From assembly GCF_044324875.1 (NCBI RefSeq), contig NZ_CP172185.1: a stretch of DNA of 64,000 nt. One strand, written 5' to 3'. This DNA is from Escherichia coli (GTDB lineage Bacteria > Pseudomonadota > Gammaproteobacteria > Enterobacterales > Enterobacteriaceae). The notes beneath the pieces were generated by a model, which did not search any database, was not told the DNA's origin, and saw only the letters and a list, made by a program, of their open reading frames with translations. Each line of letters starts with the position of its first letter. The first letter of the stretch is position 1. This document shows positions 4,521 through 29,160 of this stretch, piece by piece. A program made the position numbers and the translations under genes.

Positions 4521-4596
4521 TGGTGGCCCCTGCTGGACTTGAACCAGCGACCAAGCGATTATGAGTCGCCTGCTCTAACCACTGAGCTAAGGGGCC
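4521..4596 (-). tRNA. ileX: tRNA with anticodon CAT of the Ile2 (lysidine-modified) type
   Basis: Reverse complement GGCCCCTTAGCTCAGTGGTTAGAGCAGGCGACTCATAATCGCTTGGTCGCTGGTTCAAGTCCAGCAGGGGCCACCA: 76 nt, cloverleaf-compatible, anticodon loop CUCAUAA, encoded CCA end. Confidence 0.9.
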
Positions 4597-16904: not shown

Positions 16905-17060
16905 ATGCGTGGAATTGTCAACGATTGCGTAGGCCGGATAAGGCGTTCACGCCGCATCCGGCAATCAACGCCTGATGCGACGCTCGCGCGTCTTATCAGG
17001 CCTACAACTGTCGTTGACATGTAGCCGGATAAGGCGTTTACGCCGCATCCGGCAAAATAT
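16905..17060. repeat. BIME: cluster of three REP palindromes between uppP and cca
   Basis: GCCGGATAAGGCGTTCACGCCGCATCCGGC (16934-16963), GCCTGATGCGACGCTCGCGCGTCTTATCAGGCCTAC (16971-17006) and a second GCCGGATAAGGCGTTTACGCCGCATCCGGC (17025-17054). Confidence 0.75.
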
Positions 17061-23443: not shown

Positions 23444-24877
23444 ATGAAAGTAACGCTGCCAGAGTTTGAACGTGCAGGAGTGATGGTGGTTGGTGATGTG
23501 ATGCTGGATCGTTACTGGTACGGCCCCACCAGTCGTATCTCGCCGGAAGCGCCGGTGCCCGTGGTTAAAGTGAATACCATCGAAGAACGTCCGGGCGGCG
23601 CGGCTAACGTGGCGATGAATATCGCTTCTCTCGGTGCTAATGCACGCCTGGTCGGGTTGACGGGCATTGACGATGCAGCGCGCGCGCTGAGTAAATCTCT
23701 GGCCGACGTCAACGTCAAATGCGACTTCGTTTCTGTACCGACGCATCCGACCATCACCAAATTACGGGTACTTTCCCGCAACCAACAGCTGATCCGTCTG
23801 GATTTTGAAGAAGGTTTCGAAGGGGTTGATCCGCAGCCGCTGCACGAGCGGATTAATCAGGCGCTGAGTTCGATTGGCGCGCTGGTGCTCTCTGACTACG
23901 CGAAAGGTGCGCTGGCAAGCGTGCAGCAGATGATCCAACTGGCGCGTAAAGCGGGCGTTCCGGTGCTGATTGATCCAAAAGGCACCGATTTTGAGCGCTA
24001 CCGCGGCGCTACGCTGTTAACGCCGAATCTCTCGGAATTTGAAGCTGTTGTCGGTAAATGTAAGACCGAAGAAGAGATTGTTGAACGCGGCATGAAACTG
24101 ATTGCCGATTACGAACTCTCGGCTCTGTTAGTGACCCGTTCCGAACAGGGTATGTCGCTGCTGCAACCGGGCAAAACGCCGCTGCATATGCCAACTCAGG
24201 CGCAGGAAGTGTATGACGTTACCGGTGCGGGCGACACGGTGATTGGTGTCCTGGCGGCAACGCTGGCGGCGGGTAATTCGCTGGAAGAAGCCTGCTTCTT
24301 TGCTAATGCGGCGGCAGGCGTAGTGGTCGGCAAACTGGGGACATCCACGGTTTCGCCGATCGAGCTGGAAAACGCAGTACGTGGACGTGCAGATACCGGC
24401 TTTGGTGTGATGACCGAAGAGGAACTGAAGCTTGCTGTGGCGGCGGCGCGTAAACGCGGCGAAAAGGTGGTAATGACCAATGGCGTCTTTGACATCCTGC
24501 ACGCCGGGCACGTCTCTTATCTGGCAAATGCCCGTAAACTGGGTGACCGTTTGATTGTCGCCGTCAACAGCGATGCTTCCACCAAACGGCTGAAAGGGGA
24601 TTCCCGCCCCGTTAACCCTCTCGAGCAGCGTATGATTGTGCTGGGTGCACTGGAAGCGGTCGACTGGGTGGTGTCGTTTGAAGAAGACACGCCGCAGCGC
24701 CTGATCGCCGGGATCTTGCCAGACCTGCTGGTGAAAGGCGGCGACTATAAACCAGAAGAGATTGCCGGGAGTAAAGAAGTCTGGGCCAACGGTGGCGAAG
24801 TGTTGGTGCTCAACTTTGAAGACGGTTGCTCGACGACCAACATCATCAAGAAGATCCAACAGGATAAAAAAGGCTAA
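23444..24877 (+). CDS. hldE: Bifunctional D-glycero-beta-D-manno-heptose-7-phosphate kinase / heptose-1-phosphate adenylyltransferase
   Basis: 477-aa ORF with N-terminal ribokinase-like and C-terminal cytidylyltransferase-like domains; SD AGGAGA. Confidence 0.95.
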
Positions 24878-24921: not shown

Positions 24922-24949
24922 TTGACGCTGTTTTTTTTCAACCTAAAGT
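24922..24949 (+). promoter_or_regulatory. Sigma-70-type promoter of the repeat-1 antisense RNA: TTGACG-N16-TAAAGT
   Basis: -35 TTGACG (24922-24927), 16-bp spacer, -10 TAAAGT (24944-24949); duplicated in repeat 2. Confidence 0.5.
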
Positions 24950-24956
24950 AAAGGAA

Positions 24957-25104
24957 CAAGGGTGAGGGAGGATTTCTCCCCCCTCTGATTGGCTGTTAAT
25001 AAGCTGCGAAACTTACGAGTAACAACACAATCAGTATGATGACCAGCTTCATCATAACCCTTTCCTTATACAAGGCCCCTTCTTCGGGAGGGGCTTTCCC
25101 GTTT
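24957..25104 (+). ncRNA. sibE: Sib-family antisense sRNA (antitoxin), repeat 1; ends are approximate
   Basis: Inferred transcript from the promoter to an intrinsic terminator (8-bp stem GCCCCUUC / GGAGGGGC with UUCG tetraloop at 25075-25094, then a U-rich tract); fully complementary to the 19-codon ORF on the opposite strand. The D versus E label rests on recalled K-12 gene order. Confidence 0.55.
24996..25055 (-). CDS. ibsE: Ibs-family type I toxin, 19-aa hydrophobic peptide MMKLVIILIVLLLVSFAAY
   Basis: Minus-strand ATG ATG AAG CTG GTC ATC ATA CTG ATT GTG TTG TTA CTC GTA AGT TTC GCA GCT TAT TAA, preceded by SD AAGGAAAGGG. Below the 60-aa cutoff of the ORF track. Confidence 0.7.
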   Translation of the reverse strand: MMKLVIILIVLLLVSFAAY

Positions 25105-25242
25105 CAGCCCCTTGCTGACTCCCCGATTGTTGATGAGCGCCAGACCCCGCGCAATGCTTTCCCTGATGCAGTTTTGCCTTCCCCGAGCCGTCACGCAAAA
25201 TGCTGCAACAGCCTGATCATTTGCACCTTTTAGCGGAACGCA

Positions 25243-25277
25243 GATATAAAAAATCCCCGGCTTTTTGGGCCAGGGAT
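25243..25277 (-). terminator. Minus-strand intrinsic terminator at the end of repeat unit 1
   Basis: On the minus strand CCCUGGC-CCAAAAA-GCCGGGG followed by a U-tract; duplicate of the 25621-25654 element. Confidence 0.55.
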
Positions 25278-25296
25278 GTGGGATAGAGAAACCTTC

Positions 25297-25325
25297 TTGA
25301 CGCTGATTTTTTTTCAACCTAAAGT
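25297..25325 (+). promoter_or_regulatory. Sigma-70-type promoter of the repeat-2 antisense RNA: TTGACG-N17-TAAAGT
   Basis: Same hexamers as repeat 1 with one extra base in the spacer. Confidence 0.5.
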
Positions 25326-25332
25326 AAAGGAA

Positions 25333-25481
25333 CAAGGGTAAGGGAGGATTTCTCCCCCCTCTGAATTGGTTGTTAATAAGCCTGGAAACTTACTAGTAAC
25401 AACACAATCAGTATGATGACGAGCTTCATCATAACCCTTTCCTTCTATAAGGCCCCTTCTTCGGGAGGGGCTTTCCCGTTT
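25333..25481 (+). ncRNA. sibD: Sib-family antisense sRNA (antitoxin), repeat 2; ends are approximate
   Basis: Promoter-to-terminator inference as for repeat 1 (hairpin at 25452-25471 with UUCG loop); complementary to the second 19-codon ORF. Confidence 0.55.
25373..25432 (-). CDS. ibsD: Ibs-family type I toxin, 19-aa hydrophobic peptide MMKLVIILIVLLLVSFQAY
   Basis: Minus-strand ATG ATG AAG CTC GTC ATC ATA CTG ATT GTG TTG TTA CTA GTA AGT TTC CAG GCT TAT TAA with the same SD as repeat 1. Confidence 0.7.
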   Translation of the reverse strand: MMKLVIILIVLLLVSFQAY

Positions 25482-25620
25482 CAGCCCCCTGCTGACTCCC
25501 CGATTGTTGATGAGCGCCAGACCCCGCGCAACGCTTTCCCAGAGGCAGTTTTCCCTTCCCCGAGCGGTCACGCAAAATGCTGCAACAGCCTGATCATTTG
25601 CACCTTTTAGCGGAACGCAG

Positions 25621-25654
25621 ATATAAAAAATCCCCGGCTTTTTGGGCCAGGGAT
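25621..25654 (-). terminator. Intrinsic terminator immediately downstream of yqiK
   Basis: Minus-strand hairpin CCCUGGC / GCCGGGG followed by UUUUUUAU, 18 bp after the yqiK stop. Confidence 0.6.
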
Positions 25655-25671
25655 TATTCATAGAAGAGGGT

Positions 25672-27333
25672 TTACTCTGTTTTTTCTTCGACGGGAGTTG
25701 TTGAGGTTAAGGGTGAAGTCAATGCCGCCAGCGAGCCGCCAGAAACACCGATTTCATTGAGCAAGGAGTCAATCAGTGGTGCCTGTGTGCGGTAAGAAAG
25801 GGCGGCAGACAATGCCTGTTCTGCCAGGTTTCCGCCACTAACGCTGCCTGATGCCGCATTCCCCGCAGCGCCACCTCGGTTTAATCCATCGACCTGAATA
25901 ATCTTGATGCCGTCAATGGACTTCATCGGCTCAACGGATTTCTCTATTACCGCAGGTAATGATTGTAATAGCGCCAGTTTGAATTTAAGGCTGGTTTGCT
26001 CGTCAGAAAGTACGTTGATAGCGTCGTTCAGCGCACGTTGCGCTTCTGCTTCCGCCAGACCCTTTTTACGCGTAGCTTCGGCTAACTCAACGATTGCCGC
26101 CGCCTGCATCTCTGCGGCTTCTTTTTCAGCTTTCGCCCGGACGGTCAGTTCGACTGCTTTGGTTTCCGCGTCCTGCGCGGCAGCGATTAGGGCAACTTGT
26201 TTAGCACGATCGGCTTCTGCGGTCTGGCGAGTGGTTTCAACGTTTTGCTGGGCGCTTACCGCTTCTGCAAGTGCAAGGTTGGCACGCGCTTCCGCTTGTG
26301 ACTGCTGTTCCGATTTGGCGGCAATAGCGATCGATTTCGTCTGGTTGGCGATTTCGGTGACCTGCTGCTGTTCGATCTCTTTAATGCGAACTTCACGTTC
26401 AGCTTCAACTTTTCTGGAACGGACGGCCTGTTCGCGGTCGATTTCCGTTTCCTGAATCTGTCGTTCAGCCAGAATTCGCGTCTGCTCTGCTTCCCGACGA
26501 CGCTCGGCCTCAAAAGCCGCAATTTTCGCATTCTGCTCAGCGGTACGGGTTTTAACCTGCTGCTCCTGCTCAAGCGTCATAAACGCTTCTTGTTGTTCAA
26601 TCTCCAGCTTGCGCGAAAGCGCATCACGGTTTTTCTCACGCACCGCAACTTCTACATCCTGTTCAACTTCGTTACGTTCGCGACGACGGCGCTCCGTCTC
26701 CTGCGTCAGCTTGGTTAAACCTTCGGCGTCAAAGGCGTTGTTAGGATTGAAATGTTCTTTCGACGTCTGGTTAAAGTTGGTAAGTGAAACGCTTTCCAGT
26801 TCCAGGCCGTTTTTCGACAGATCTTCAGCTACGGTATTTTGTACTCCCTGCACGAAGTTCTCGCGGGTATCCTGTAACTCATGCATGGTCATTTGTGCAG
26901 CTGTTGCACGGAGGGCATCGACAAATTTATCTTCAACCAACATACGTAAGTCTTCAGGCGACAGGGTGCGTTGTCCCAGCGTCTGGGCGGCGGTGGCAAT
27001 CCCTTCAACTGAAGGTTTTACCCGCACAAAGAAAGCGACCACGACATCGACGCGCATACGATCTTTCGTAATCAGGCTATCAATGGTTGAGCGGCTGACT
27101 TCCAGCTTCAGGGTATTCATATTGATGGGGATTATTTCATGAAAGATCGGCATCACGATTGCGCCACCGCTCATTACCACTTTTTGCCCACCTAAACCAG
27201 TACGAACAAAAGCTTGCTCTGCCGAAGCGCGACGATAGAGCCTGGCGAAAATAATTCCAATAATAAACAGAATGCATACGGCAATAATTGCGGTAAACAT
27301 CCAGGAGGGCACAGAATTAACAATATCATCCAT
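25672..27333 (-). CDS. yqiK: Flotillin-like SPFH (band 7) domain membrane protein
   Basis: 553-aa ORF: N-terminal TM helix, SPFH domain, long Glu/Ala/Arg/Gln-rich coiled coil. Confidence 0.9.
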   Translation of the reverse strand: MDDIVNSVPSWMFTAIIAVCILFIIGIIFARLYRRASAEQAFVRTGLGGQKVVMSGGAIVMPIFHEIIPINMNTLKLEVSRSTIDSLITKDRMRVDVVVAFFVRVKPSVEGIATAAQTLGQRTLSPEDLRMLVEDKFVDALRATAAQMTMHELQDTRENFVQGVQNTVAEDLSKNGLELESVSLTNFNQTSKEHFNPNNAFDAEGLTKLTQETERRRRERNEVEQDVEVAVREKNRDALSRKLEIEQQEAFMTLEQEQQVKTRTAEQNAKIAAFEAERRREAEQTRILAERQIQETEIDREQAVRSRKVEAEREVRIKEIEQQQVTEIANQTKSIAIAAKSEQQSQAEARANLALAEAVSAQQNVETTRQTAEADRAKQVALIAAAQDAETKAVELTVRAKAEKEAAEMQAAAIVELAEATRKKGLAEAEAQRALNDAINVLSDEQTSLKFKLALLQSLPAVIEKSVEPMKSIDGIKIIQVDGLNRGGAAGNAASGSVSGGNLAEQALSAALSYRTQAPLIDSLLNEIGVSGGSLAALTSPLTSTTPVEEKTE

Positions 27334-28913: not shown

Positions 28914-29160
28914 GCTTATTCTCAGGGCGGGGCGAAATTCCCCACCGGCGGTAAATCAACTCAGTTGAAAGCCCGCGAGCGCTTTGGGTGCGAACTCAAA
29001 GGACAGCAGATCCGGTGTAATTCCGGGGCCGACGGTTAGAGTCCGGATGGGAGAGAGTAACGATTCTGTCGGGCATGGACCCGCTCACGTTATTTTGGCT
29101 ATATGCCGCCACTCCTAAGACTGCCCTGATTCTGGTAACCATAATTTTAGTGAGGTTTTT
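28914..29160 (+). promoter_or_regulatory. sroG: FMN riboswitch (RFN element) in the ribB leader
   Basis: Conserved FMN-aptamer blocks present: CAGGGCGGGGCGAAAUUCCCCACCGGCGGUA, GCCCGCGAGCG, GCCGACGGUUAGAGUCCGGAUGGGAGA, followed by the expression platform and SD GAGG. Confidence 0.85.

What the first reader, a model, noticed from the sequence alone, without database searches (positions are those of the whole stretch)
24922..25654. Tandem pair of type I toxin-antitoxin modules (Ibs toxin / Sib antisense RNA) between hldE and yqiK
Two ~375-bp near-identical direct repeats each carry a 19-codon ORF with SD on the minus strand (MMKLVIILIVLLLVSFAAY and ...VSFQAY, almost entirely hydrophobic). Each ORF is covered completely by a plus-strand transcript inferred from a TTGACG-N16/17-TAAAGT promoter and a UUCG-tetraloop terminator. 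This is the architecture of the Ibs/Sib family, and I recall the sibD/sibE pair at this position in K-12, so it is a known system type rather than a new one. The residue differences between the copies (A vs Q at position 17) and the single-base indels suggest ongoing divergence after duplication.
Basis: partly seen in the sequence, partly recalled or inferred. Interest (0 to 1): 0.55.

Follow-up and report, generated by a model that had tools for sequence, protein, structure and literature searches.

The report
Known Sib/Ibs toxin-antitoxin tandem pair
This is the well-known E. coli sibE/ibsE–sibD/ibsD locus: two adjacent copies of a tiny membrane-toxin gene, each silenced by an antisense RNA made from the opposite strand. 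It is ordinary, except that this strain carries a minority combination of alleles.

Summary

- **Repeat and family.** Two ~376-bp direct repeats lie between hldE and yqiK. Each scores 142–145 bits against Rfam SIB_RNA (threshold 56). Each holds a 19-codon ORF on the opposite strand that RefSeq calls an Ibs family toxin.
- **K-12 match.** K-12 MG1655 has sibE/ibsE and sibD/ibsD at the same position. This is an already known system.
- **Correction 1: naming.** The names fit only by position. The hldE-side unit sits where K-12 has ibsE, but it encodes a peptide identical to K-12 IbsD. Its RNA combines a SibD-type TRD1 with a SibE-type TRD2. The yqiK-side unit is a third type (…SFQAY), found in 279 of 5,426 complete E. 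coli genomes.
- **Correction 2: divergence.** The A/Q difference is not fresh divergence after duplication. Each unit's TRD1 zone (Sib +31..+70, which contains codon 17) is identical to units in other strains, sometimes in the other slot. Across 18 units there were at least 10 recombination events.
- **Codon 17.** It lies opposite the exact Sib triplet that Han et al. (2010) showed sets antitoxin specificity.

Expression and toxicity were not testable here. Interest is low.

The parts
23444..24877 (+). hldE, the left flanking gene
   Evidence: ORF; RefSeq annotation; K-12 synteny.
24922..24949 (+). Sib promoter of unit 1 (TTGACG-N16-TAAAGT)
   Evidence: It is the homolog of the K-12 sibE promoter position. 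The -10 is TAAAGT as in K-12 sibD, not TAGAGT as in K-12 sibE.
24956..25099 (+). Sib antitoxin RNA of unit 1 (sibE slot): 144 nt, starts with A, SibD-type TRD1 and SibE-type TRD2
   Evidence: Rfam RF00113 at 145.3 bits. Ends transferred from the K-12 sibE annotation. Fold z = -4.35. Block typing.
24996..25055 (-). ibs toxin ORF of unit 1: MMKLVIILIVLLLVSFAAY, 19/19 identical to K-12 IbsD
   Evidence: RefSeq WP_001387081.1 'Ibs family toxin'.
24958..25119 (-). Inferred ibs mRNA of unit 1, about 162 nt
   Evidence: The +1 comes from homology to the ibsD start implied by primer ERI-T7-ibsD in PMC2943612. The 3' end follows that paper's +163 primer and is not mapped in vivo.
25126..25154 (-). Inferred ibs promoter of unit 1 (-35 TTGCGC, N17, -10 AACAAT)
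   Evidence: The spacing to the +1 is canonical. Inferred, and weaker than consensus, so the scan did not flag it.
25253..25277 (-). Minus-strand intrinsic terminator between the units, a duplicate of the yqiK terminator
   Evidence: 9-bp stem followed by TTTTTTAT.
25297..25325 (+). Sib promoter of unit 2 (TTGACG-N17-TAAAGT)
   Evidence: The 35 bp upstream of the +1 are identical to those upstream of the K-12 sibD +1. [quoted passage not shown]
25332..25476 (+). Sib antitoxin RNA of unit 2 (sibD slot): 145 nt, starts with A, 'QAY'-type TRD1
   Evidence: Rfam RF00113 at 142.5 bits. Ends from the K-12 sibD annotation. Fold z = -4.54.
25373..25432 (-). ibs toxin ORF of unit 2: MMKLVIILIVLLLVSFQAY, which is IbsD with A17Q
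   Evidence: RefSeq WP_071528379.1 'Ibs family toxin'.
25334..25496 (-). Inferred ibs mRNA of unit 2, 163 nt
   Evidence: Primer-derived +1 and +163 from PMC2943612, mapped.
25503..25531 (-). Inferred ibs promoter of unit 2 (-35 TTGCGC, N17, -10 AACAAT)
25629..25655 (-). yqiK intrinsic terminator, the last element of repeat unit 2
   Evidence: 10-bp stem followed by a T-run.
25671..25687 (+). Degenerate third copy of the 17-nt box that starts each unit. It is in phase (374 bp after the unit 2 box) and overlaps the yqiK stop codon. It is not a promoter (TTTACT).
   Evidence: 3 mismatches, with 0.33 such matches expected in the whole window.
25672..27333 (-). yqiK (flotillin family), the right flanking gene

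Best explanation
**What it is.** Two adjacent type I toxin-antitoxin modules of the Ibs/Sib family sit at the locus that K-12 annotates as sibE/ibsE (hldE side) and sibD/ibsD (yqiK side).

**Antitoxin.** In each ~376-bp unit, a sigma-70 promoter on the plus strand makes a ~145-nt structured Sib RNA that starts with A.

**Toxin.** A weak promoter on the minus strand makes a ~160-nt ibs mRNA. This mRNA lies almost entirely inside the Sib region and encodes a 19-residue hydrophobic peptide.

**Repression (from K-12 experiments).**
- Sib pairs with its own ibs mRNA through two independent recognition domains. TRD1 pairs inside the ORF around codons 12–19. TRD2 pairs at the ribosome-binding site and start codon.
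- Pairing leads to loss of the ibs mRNA (Han et al. 2010, citing Fozo et al. 2008). RNase III contributes, because ibsD transcripts are more stable in rnc mutants (PMC7373196).

**If the peptide is made (from K-12 IbsC and Salmonella IbsA).**
- It inserts in the inner membrane, depolarises it, lowers ATP and stops growth.

**Shown here.**
- Family membership of both RNAs, peptide identity to IbsD, promoters, fold, synteny, and the distribution of alleles across E. coli.

**Inferred by homology.**
- Transcript ends, repression, toxicity, and likely NAD capping of both Sib RNAs.

**This strain's haplotype.**
- It is a minority haplotype: AAY-type TRD1 with E-type TRD2 in slot 1, and QAY-type TRD1 in slot 2.
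- It was assembled by recombination among pre-existing unit types, not by local divergence.
For: **Family and annotation.**
- Rfam SIB_RNA scores 145.3 and 142.5 bits against a threshold of 56, with full-length model matches on the plus strand.
- RefSeq annotates two 'type I toxin-antitoxin system Ibs family toxin' CDS at exactly these ORFs in a strain 100% identical over 851 bp.
- K-12 MG1655 has yqiK | sibD/ibsD | sibE/ibsE | hldE.
- The intergenic alignment to K-12 is 93.5% identical and colinear. Peptide 1 matches K-12 IbsD at 19/19 residues and peptide 2 at 18/19.

**Structure.**
- The Sib promoters are the only two promoter-like sites in the region.
- The Sib RNAs fold with z = -4.4 and -4.5 and end in a UUCG hairpin.
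- The ibs +1 and promoter were mapped from the primers of Han et al. 2010.

**Mechanism from the literature.**
- PMC2943612, PMC8309996, PMC7373196, bioRxiv 10.1101/2025.05.26.656083 and PMC12956327.

**Population.**
- The locus is present in 5,425 of 5,426 complete E. coli genomes.
- TRD1 types occur in these numbers of genomes: PTY 4,949, AAY 3,946, QAY 279, HAY 33.
- Recombination among 18 units: 219 of 496 informative site pairs are incompatible, Rm is at least 10, and 0 of 2,000 permutations reached the observed clustering of compatible neighbours.
- ibs codon 17 lies opposite Sib +50–52 here and SibC +49–51, the triplet swapped in Han et al..
Against: - No expression or toxicity data exist for this strain.
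- The QAY peptide and its Sib have, as far as I found, never been tested.
- NCBIfam HMMs gave no Ibs hit for the peptides padded to 23–25 residues. Pfam could not be run because the peptides are under 30 residues. Peptide membership therefore rests on identity to K-12 IbsD and on the RefSeq naming.
- The Sib terminator has a poor U-tract and was not flagged by the scan. The 3' ends are transferred from K-12, not observed.
- The ibs promoter hexamers are weak, and the ibs mRNA 3' end is not mapped in vivo even in K-12.
Confidence: 0.95

Rival explanations
1. One reading: the two copies are a recent local duplication now drifting apart, and the A/Q difference and the indels are new mutations.
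For: The copies are 95–98% identical and adjacent. Outside the TRD zones they differ by only about 3–4%.
Against: - Copy 1's TRD1 zone is identical to K-12, O157, CI5 and EC21Z-137 slot-2 units.
- Copy 2's TRD1 zone is identical to CB209 slot 1 and to the single unit of MS1679.
- The QAY type occurs in 279 genomes.
- TRD1 and TRD2 types combine differently across strains, and Rm is at least 10.
- Codon 17 differs at all three bases (GCA vs CAG), so it is not one point mutation.
Confidence: 0.05
2. The units are decayed, non-functional relics of the old 'QUAD' intergenic repeats, with the toxin or the antitoxin inactivated.
For: - K-12 annotates IbsD only as a 'putative toxic peptide'.
- Strains with one unit, or with none (IS903B replacement), exist, so the locus is dispensable.
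Against: - Both ORFs are intact with their ribosome-binding sites.
- Both Sib promoters, +1A starts and folds are intact.
- Covariance-model scores are almost three times the threshold.
- Peptide 1 is identical to the IbsD used as a toxic reporter by Han et al..
- The locus is kept in 5,425 of 5,426 genomes.
Confidence: 0.04
3. The repeat encodes a longer protein: the plus-strand 65-aa ORFs (25036–25233 and 25413–25610) or the minus-strand 115-aa ORF (25314–25661).
For: These ORFs are listed mechanically. The 65-aa ORF is present in both copies.
Against: - The 65-aa ORF starts inside Sib and runs through the Sib terminator.
- The K-12 sibE unit has a 1-nt deletion inside it, and most differences between the copies change the amino acid.
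- The ATG of the 115-aa ORF is absent in K-12, which has CCT where the window has CAT.
- RefSeq annotates neither ORF.
Confidence: 0.01

Closest known systems
E. coli K-12 sibD/ibsD (b4447/b4664)
   Same: - Same family and same intergenic region.
- Window unit 1 has the identical peptide and an identical Sib +1..+88, including all of TRD1.
- Window unit 2 occupies the same slot next to yqiK, and its 35 bp upstream of the +1 are identical.
   Different: - Unit 1 sits in the other slot (hldE side) and carries the SibE-type TRD2 (CCUUAUACAAGG).
- Unit 2 differs in TRD1 (CUG vs UGC at the codon-17 triplet, G to U at about +62, and one inserted base), giving A17Q.
- Unit 2 also differs by one base in TRD2.
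E. coli K-12 sibE/ibsE (b4611/b4666)
   Same: Unit 1 has the same position next to hldE. Its TRD2 and terminator segment is the same, and Sib +90..+144 is identical.
   Different: - The K-12 IbsE peptide is MMKLVIILVVLLLLSFPTY, with 4 residues different from unit 1.
- The TRD1 zone differs at many positions.
- The K-12 sibE -10 is TAGAGT, where the window has TAAAGT.
sibC/ibsC, the mechanistically characterised member (Han et al. 2010; Fozo et al. 2008)
   Same: - Same architecture: Sib spans the whole ibs translation start and ORF.
- Both have TRD1 and TRD2 and a 19-residue hydrophobic toxin.
- The codon-17 triplet equals the TRD1 discriminator.
   Different: - Different locus (fau–serA) and a single copy.
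- Only about 73–74% identical RNA: 106/145 for window unit 2 vs SibC, and 108/146 for K-12 SibC vs SibD.
- The peptide ends …ISFSAY.
Other tandemly duplicated chromosomal type I systems (ldr/rdl, zorO-orzO/zorP-orzP)
   Same: They are small hydrophobic toxins with RNA antitoxins, duplicated in one intergenic region, with strain-to-strain variation in copy number (PMC2887945).
   Different: They are unrelated in sequence, and their antitoxins overlap only part of the toxin mRNA.

Membership tests
Sib antitoxin RNA (Rfam RF00113 SIB_RNA) | Matches the curated covariance model at or above the gathering score | tested here: met
   145.3 and 142.5 bits against a threshold of 56, model positions 1–147 of 147, plus strand. 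The model spans the promoter and stops before the terminator, so its coordinates are not the RNA ends.
Sib antitoxin RNA (Rfam RF00113 SIB_RNA) | Encoded opposite an ibs ORF and spans its entire translation start region and ORF | tested here: met
   Sib 24956–25099 covers the CDS at 24996–25055, and Sib 25332–25476 covers the CDS at 25373–25432. The ibs CDS corresponds to Sib +41..+100.
Sib antitoxin RNA (Rfam RF00113 SIB_RNA) | An independent ~140-nt transcript with its own promoter and terminator hairpin | tested here: met
   Sigma-70-like promoters, a +1A seven nt after the -10, and a 3' 11-bp UUCG hairpin. Lengths of 144 and 145 nt come from K-12 ends. This is sequence evidence only.
Sib antitoxin RNA (Rfam RF00113 SIB_RNA) | Abundant expression, and repression of the cognate ibs only | not testable with these tools
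   This needs a Northern blot or RNA-seq and a co-transformation assay. K-12 data are in PMC2943612.
Ibs type I toxin | An 18–19 residue, highly hydrophobic peptide with an Ibs-like sequence (MMK/R…ILxVLLLxSFxxY) | tested here: met
   19/19 and 18/19 identity to K-12 IbsD. Aligned codon by codon with K-12 IbsC, IbsD and IbsE and with alleles from other E. coli strains.
Ibs type I toxin | Recognised by curated protein-family resources | tested here: inconclusive
   RefSeq names both 'Ibs family toxin' (WP_001387081.1 and WP_071528379.1). NCBIfam HMMs gave no Ibs hit for the padded peptides. Pfam was not runnable because the peptides are under 30 residues.
Ibs type I toxin | Toxic when overproduced (membrane depolarisation, growth arrest) | not testable with these tools
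   Shown for IbsC and used as the assay for IbsD in K-12. The A17Q variant is untested.
K-12 sibE/ibsE orthologue (hldE-side unit) | Same sequence type as K-12 SibE/IbsE, not just the same position | tested here: not met
   The peptide is IbsD, not IbsE. The TRD1 zone has 0 differences from K-12 sibD. Only the flank and the TRD2/terminator segment are E-like.

The most novel reading that the evidence does not exclude
**Proposed reading.**
- The hldE–yqiK array is a population-level cassette system. TRD1/codon-17 types (PTY, AAY, QAY, HAY) and TRD2 types are shuffled among units and slots by recombination.
- Units living together are kept mutually non-cross-reacting.
- Under this reading, the hypervariable Ibs residue 17 is mainly a by-product of selection on RNA–RNA specificity, not on the peptide.
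- The QAY unit would be an uncharacterised specificity class.

**What supports it.**
- The shuffling itself is well supported.
- Codon 17 coincides with the TRD1 discriminator triplet.
- In all 7 two-unit genomes examined, the two units differ at both TRDs.

**What is missing.**
- Selection for non-cross-reaction is not shown, because the genomes are clonally related.
- About 18 genomes have two places matching the same TRD1-type probe; I did not check where those second places lie.
Probability: 0.3. Interest if true: 0.35.

Novelty: already known. Interest (0 to 1): 0.12.

Why it matters
As a finding it adds little. The locus is annotated in K-12, curated in Rfam, and studied experimentally since 2008.

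- **Annotation.** 'sibD' and 'sibE' are slot names in K-12. In other lineages the slots hold other sequence types, so transferring names or specificities by position would mislabel this strain's modules.
- **A natural test set.** The natural chimeras found here (D-type TRD1 with E-type TRD2, and the QAY type) are ready-made tests of the two-domain recognition model of Han et al.
- **NAD capping.** The 35 bp upstream of the unit 2 +1 are identical to those upstream of K-12 sibD, whose 35-bp minimal promoter drives NAD capping. That biology probably extends to this lineage.

Tried and rejected
- **NCBIfam HMM search.** The peptides had to be padded with upstream in-frame residues to reach the 20-residue minimum. 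No Ibs model hit appeared, only sub-threshold noise. Pfam could not be used for a 19-residue peptide.
- **Fozo et al. 2008.** I tried to read PMC2597788, the founding paper. It is not held. Its results are cited only through Han 2010, the 2021 review and the 2020 mBio paper.
- **Longer ORFs.** The 65-aa plus-strand and the 115-aa and 89-aa minus-strand ORFs are rejected. They are frameshifted or lack a start in K-12, cross terminators, and are unannotated.
- **Weak Rfam hits.** The minus-strand SIB_RNA hits (35–38 bits, below threshold) reflect the partial palindromy of the unit, not a second Sib. The Arrc14 and mir-7 hits are noise.
- **Literature on recombination.** Searches for prior descriptions of gene conversion or recombination at ibs-sib found nothing in the held library. 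This does not show it is undescribed; Fozo 2012 in RNA Biology is not held.
- **Slot-resolved typing.** Allele typing by slot for all 5,426 genomes was not possible with these tools. Only overall type counts and 12 fetched genomes carrying units (including K-12), plus one genome lacking the locus, are available.

Full report

Yes. The repeat finder reports two direct copies with a start-to-start spacing of 375–377 bp. They span 24922–25277 and 25297–25654 and are split into three gap-free segments of 94–98% identity by single-base indels.

The minus-strand ORFs at 24996–25055 and 25373–25432 translate to MMKLVIILIVLLLVSFAAY and MMKLVIILIVLLLVSFQAY. Each is preceded by AAGGAAAGGG.

Shuffled sequence gives 0.8 such sites.

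Folding the inferred RNAs gives -53.6 and -53.5 kcal/mol (z = -4.35 and -4.54). Both end in an 11-bp hairpin closed by a UUCG loop. The tail after that hairpin is U-poor, so the simple terminator scan did not list it.

**2. What is it?**

Rfam SIB_RNA (RF00113) matches both copies on the plus strand over the whole model, at 145.3 and 142.5 bits against a gathering score of 56. The Rfam model begins at the -35 box and stops before the terminator, so its coordinates (24922–25070 and 25297–25447) are not the RNA ends.

An 851-bp query matches 5,425 of 5,426 complete E. coli genomes. In the strain that is 100% identical (PK8275), RefSeq annotates both ORFs as 'type I toxin-antitoxin system Ibs family toxin', between hldE and yqiK. 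K-12 MG1655 has yqiK, sibD/ibsD, sibE/ibsE and hldE in the same order.

Aligning the intergenic regions (93.5% identity, colinear) transfers the K-12 RNA ends. Unit 1 Sib is 24956–25099 (144 nt) and unit 2 Sib is 25332–25476 (145 nt). Both start with A, seven nt after the -10.

The primers published by Han et al. (ERI-T7-ibsD and ibsD+163) place the ibs mRNAs at 25119→24958 and 25496→25334 on the minus strand. A TTGCGC-N17-AACAAT promoter lies just upstream of each.

The rest of each unit is the ibs upstream region. It ends in a minus-strand terminator at 25277–25253 or 25655–25629. The second of these is the yqiK terminator and the first is its duplicate.

**3. How it works**

These steps come from K-12 literature and were not tested here.

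- Sib RNAs repress only their cognate ibs mRNA, with ibsA the exception.
- Two independent recognition domains do this. TRD1 is at about +46..+68 and pairs within the ORF. TRD2 is at about +99..+115 and pairs at the translation start.
- Swapping the triplet at SibC +49–51, or the TRD2 stretch, to the SibD sequence redirects SibC to ibsD. Repression leads to ibs mRNA degradation (PMC2943612).
- RNase III contributes: ibsD transcripts are stabilised in rnc mutants (PMC7373196).
- Overproduced IbsC depolarises the membrane within minutes. [quoted passage not shown]
- A preprint reports that Salmonella IbsA binds the Fo a and b subunits and lowers ATP.
- K-12 SibC, SibD and SibE are NAD-capped. 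[quoted passage not shown]
- The 35 bp upstream of the unit 2 +1 are identical to those upstream of the K-12 sibD +1, and both units start with A. NAD capping here is therefore a reasonable inference.

**4.

*(a) The names fit by position only.*

The hldE-side unit is in K-12's ibsE slot. However, its peptide is 19/19 identical to K-12 IbsD, whereas K-12 IbsE is MMKLVIILVVLLLLSFPTY. Its Sib is identical to K-12 SibD over +1..+88 and to K-12 SibE over +90..+144. It is a natural chimera of D-type TRD1 and E-type TRD2. The yqiK-side unit has a TRD1 zone unlike any K-12 Sib and encodes A17Q.

*(b) The differences are not fresh divergence.*

I fetched the locus from 11 further E. coli genomes. In 10 of these plus K-12 it carries units, and in the eleventh it is deleted.

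| Genome | Slot 1 (hldE side) | Slot 2 (yqiK side) |
|---|---|---|
| K-12 and the common arrangement (O157, CI5, EC21Z-137, 2012C-4606) | PTY | AAY |
| This window | AAY | QAY |
| CB209 | QAY | HAY |
| Single-unit strains | PTY (ST131, ST2747), AAY (Z1323HEC0475) or QAY (MS1679) | none |

- One strain has lost the locus to an IS903B-associated deletion.
- The three TRD2 variants (ATACAAGG, CTATAAGG, CTGTAAGG) combine freely with the TRD1 types.
- Each window unit's TRD1 zone has zero-difference twins in other strains.
- Among 32 informative sites, 219 of 496 pairs fail the four-gamete test. The minimum number of recombination events is 10. Compatible sites cluster more than in any of 2,000 permutations.

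Type-specific 50-mers give these counts across the collection:

| TRD1 type | Genomes with a match (of 5,426) |
|---|---|
| PTY | 4,949 |
| AAY | 3,946 |
| QAY | 279 |
| HAY | 33 |

Only 123 genomes are at least 99% identical to the window over the whole locus. The collection is not a random sample of the species.

*(c) The A/Q position is the specificity triplet.*

- The two window units differ at 18 sites. Six fall in the 41-column TRD1 zone (14.6%) and two in the 23-column TRD2 zone. One more lies in the +71..+98 block at Sib +89 (CCAGCU vs CGAGCU); by my reading of the fold this is the P6 hairpin loop, which Han et al. link to TRD2 function. Most other blocks differ by about 3–4%.
- ibs codon 17 lies opposite Sib +50–52 here and SibC +49–51, the triplet Han et al. 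swapped.
- Across the units, codon 17 takes five forms that differ at several bases: GCA, CAG, CCG, CAC and AGC. Codons 15–16 never vary.
- Across the 18 units, nucleotide diversity is 0.14–0.15 over +31..+68 and 0.02–0.065 elsewhere.
- A plausible reading, which is inference, is that residue 17 varies because the RNA specificity element varies.

**5. Predicted cross-talk**

Between the two window units, uninterrupted identity is broken at +50–52, +62, +89, +113 and +116. This resembles K-12 SibD against SibE. Han et al., citing Fozo et al. 2008, report that Sib RNAs repress only cognate ibs mRNAs, ibsA excepted. The two modules are therefore probably independent, but they are closer to each other (135/145) than K-12 D and E are (130/145). 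This is untested.

**6. Comparison and verdict**

This is a member of a known family at a known locus, so it is already known. The only added value is the allele and slot mismatch, the mosaic structure of the units, and the coincidence of codon 17 with the TRD1 discriminator. Interest is low.

Noticed in passing
window 25671-25687: A degenerate third copy of the 17-nt box that begins each repeat unit (TTTACTCTGTTTTTTCT vs TTGACGCTGTTTTTTTT). It sits exactly one period after the unit 2 box and overlaps the yqiK stop codon. The array is therefore box-unit-box-unit-box', the layout expected if unequal crossing-over between short flanking repeats gains and loses units.
   Followed up: partly
L003, L004, L012, L013 (single-unit loci); L014 1627-2595: Copy number at this locus varies. 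About a quarter of a 60-genome spread sample, including ST131, has one unit (~475 bp between hldE and yqiK). One strain (EC0900) has an IS903B-family transposase right after hldE, with yqiK and the units gone.
   Followed up: partly
(E. coli collection): About 18 genomes have two places matching the same TRD1-type probe (15 AAY, 2 PTY, 1 QAY). These could be same-type pairs or three-unit arrays. One PTY-type place is on a plasmid. I examined none of them.
   Followed up: no
window 28914-29062 (+): An FMN riboswitch (RF00050, 120.9 bits). From memory of the K-12 map it is probably the ribB leader; I did not check the downstream gene.
   Followed up: no
window 16932-17002 (+): A match to Rfam naRNA4 (RF02564, 83.1 bits), the nucleoid-associated noncoding RNA family.
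   Followed up: no
window 4521-4596 (-): A single tRNA gene with a CAT anticodon, called tRNA-Met by ARAGORN. From memory, K-12 has ileX (a CAT-anticodon tRNA-Ile2) in this neighbourhood, so the Met call may be the usual mislabel. I did not check.
   Followed up: no
L011 1121-1449: In strain 2012C-4606, RefSeq marks yqiK next to the array as a pseudogene (internal stop). Its slot-2 Ibs has L13I, and its slot-1 Sib has lost one C from the C-run.
   Followed up: no
window 25204-25225 and 25581-25602: Seen by eye only: a short inverted repeat TGCAA-N12-TTGCA in the conserved region upstream of each ibs promoter. Han et al. mention unpublished putative transcription-factor sites upstream of ibsC and ibsD. 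With 5-bp arms it could easily be chance.
   Followed up: no
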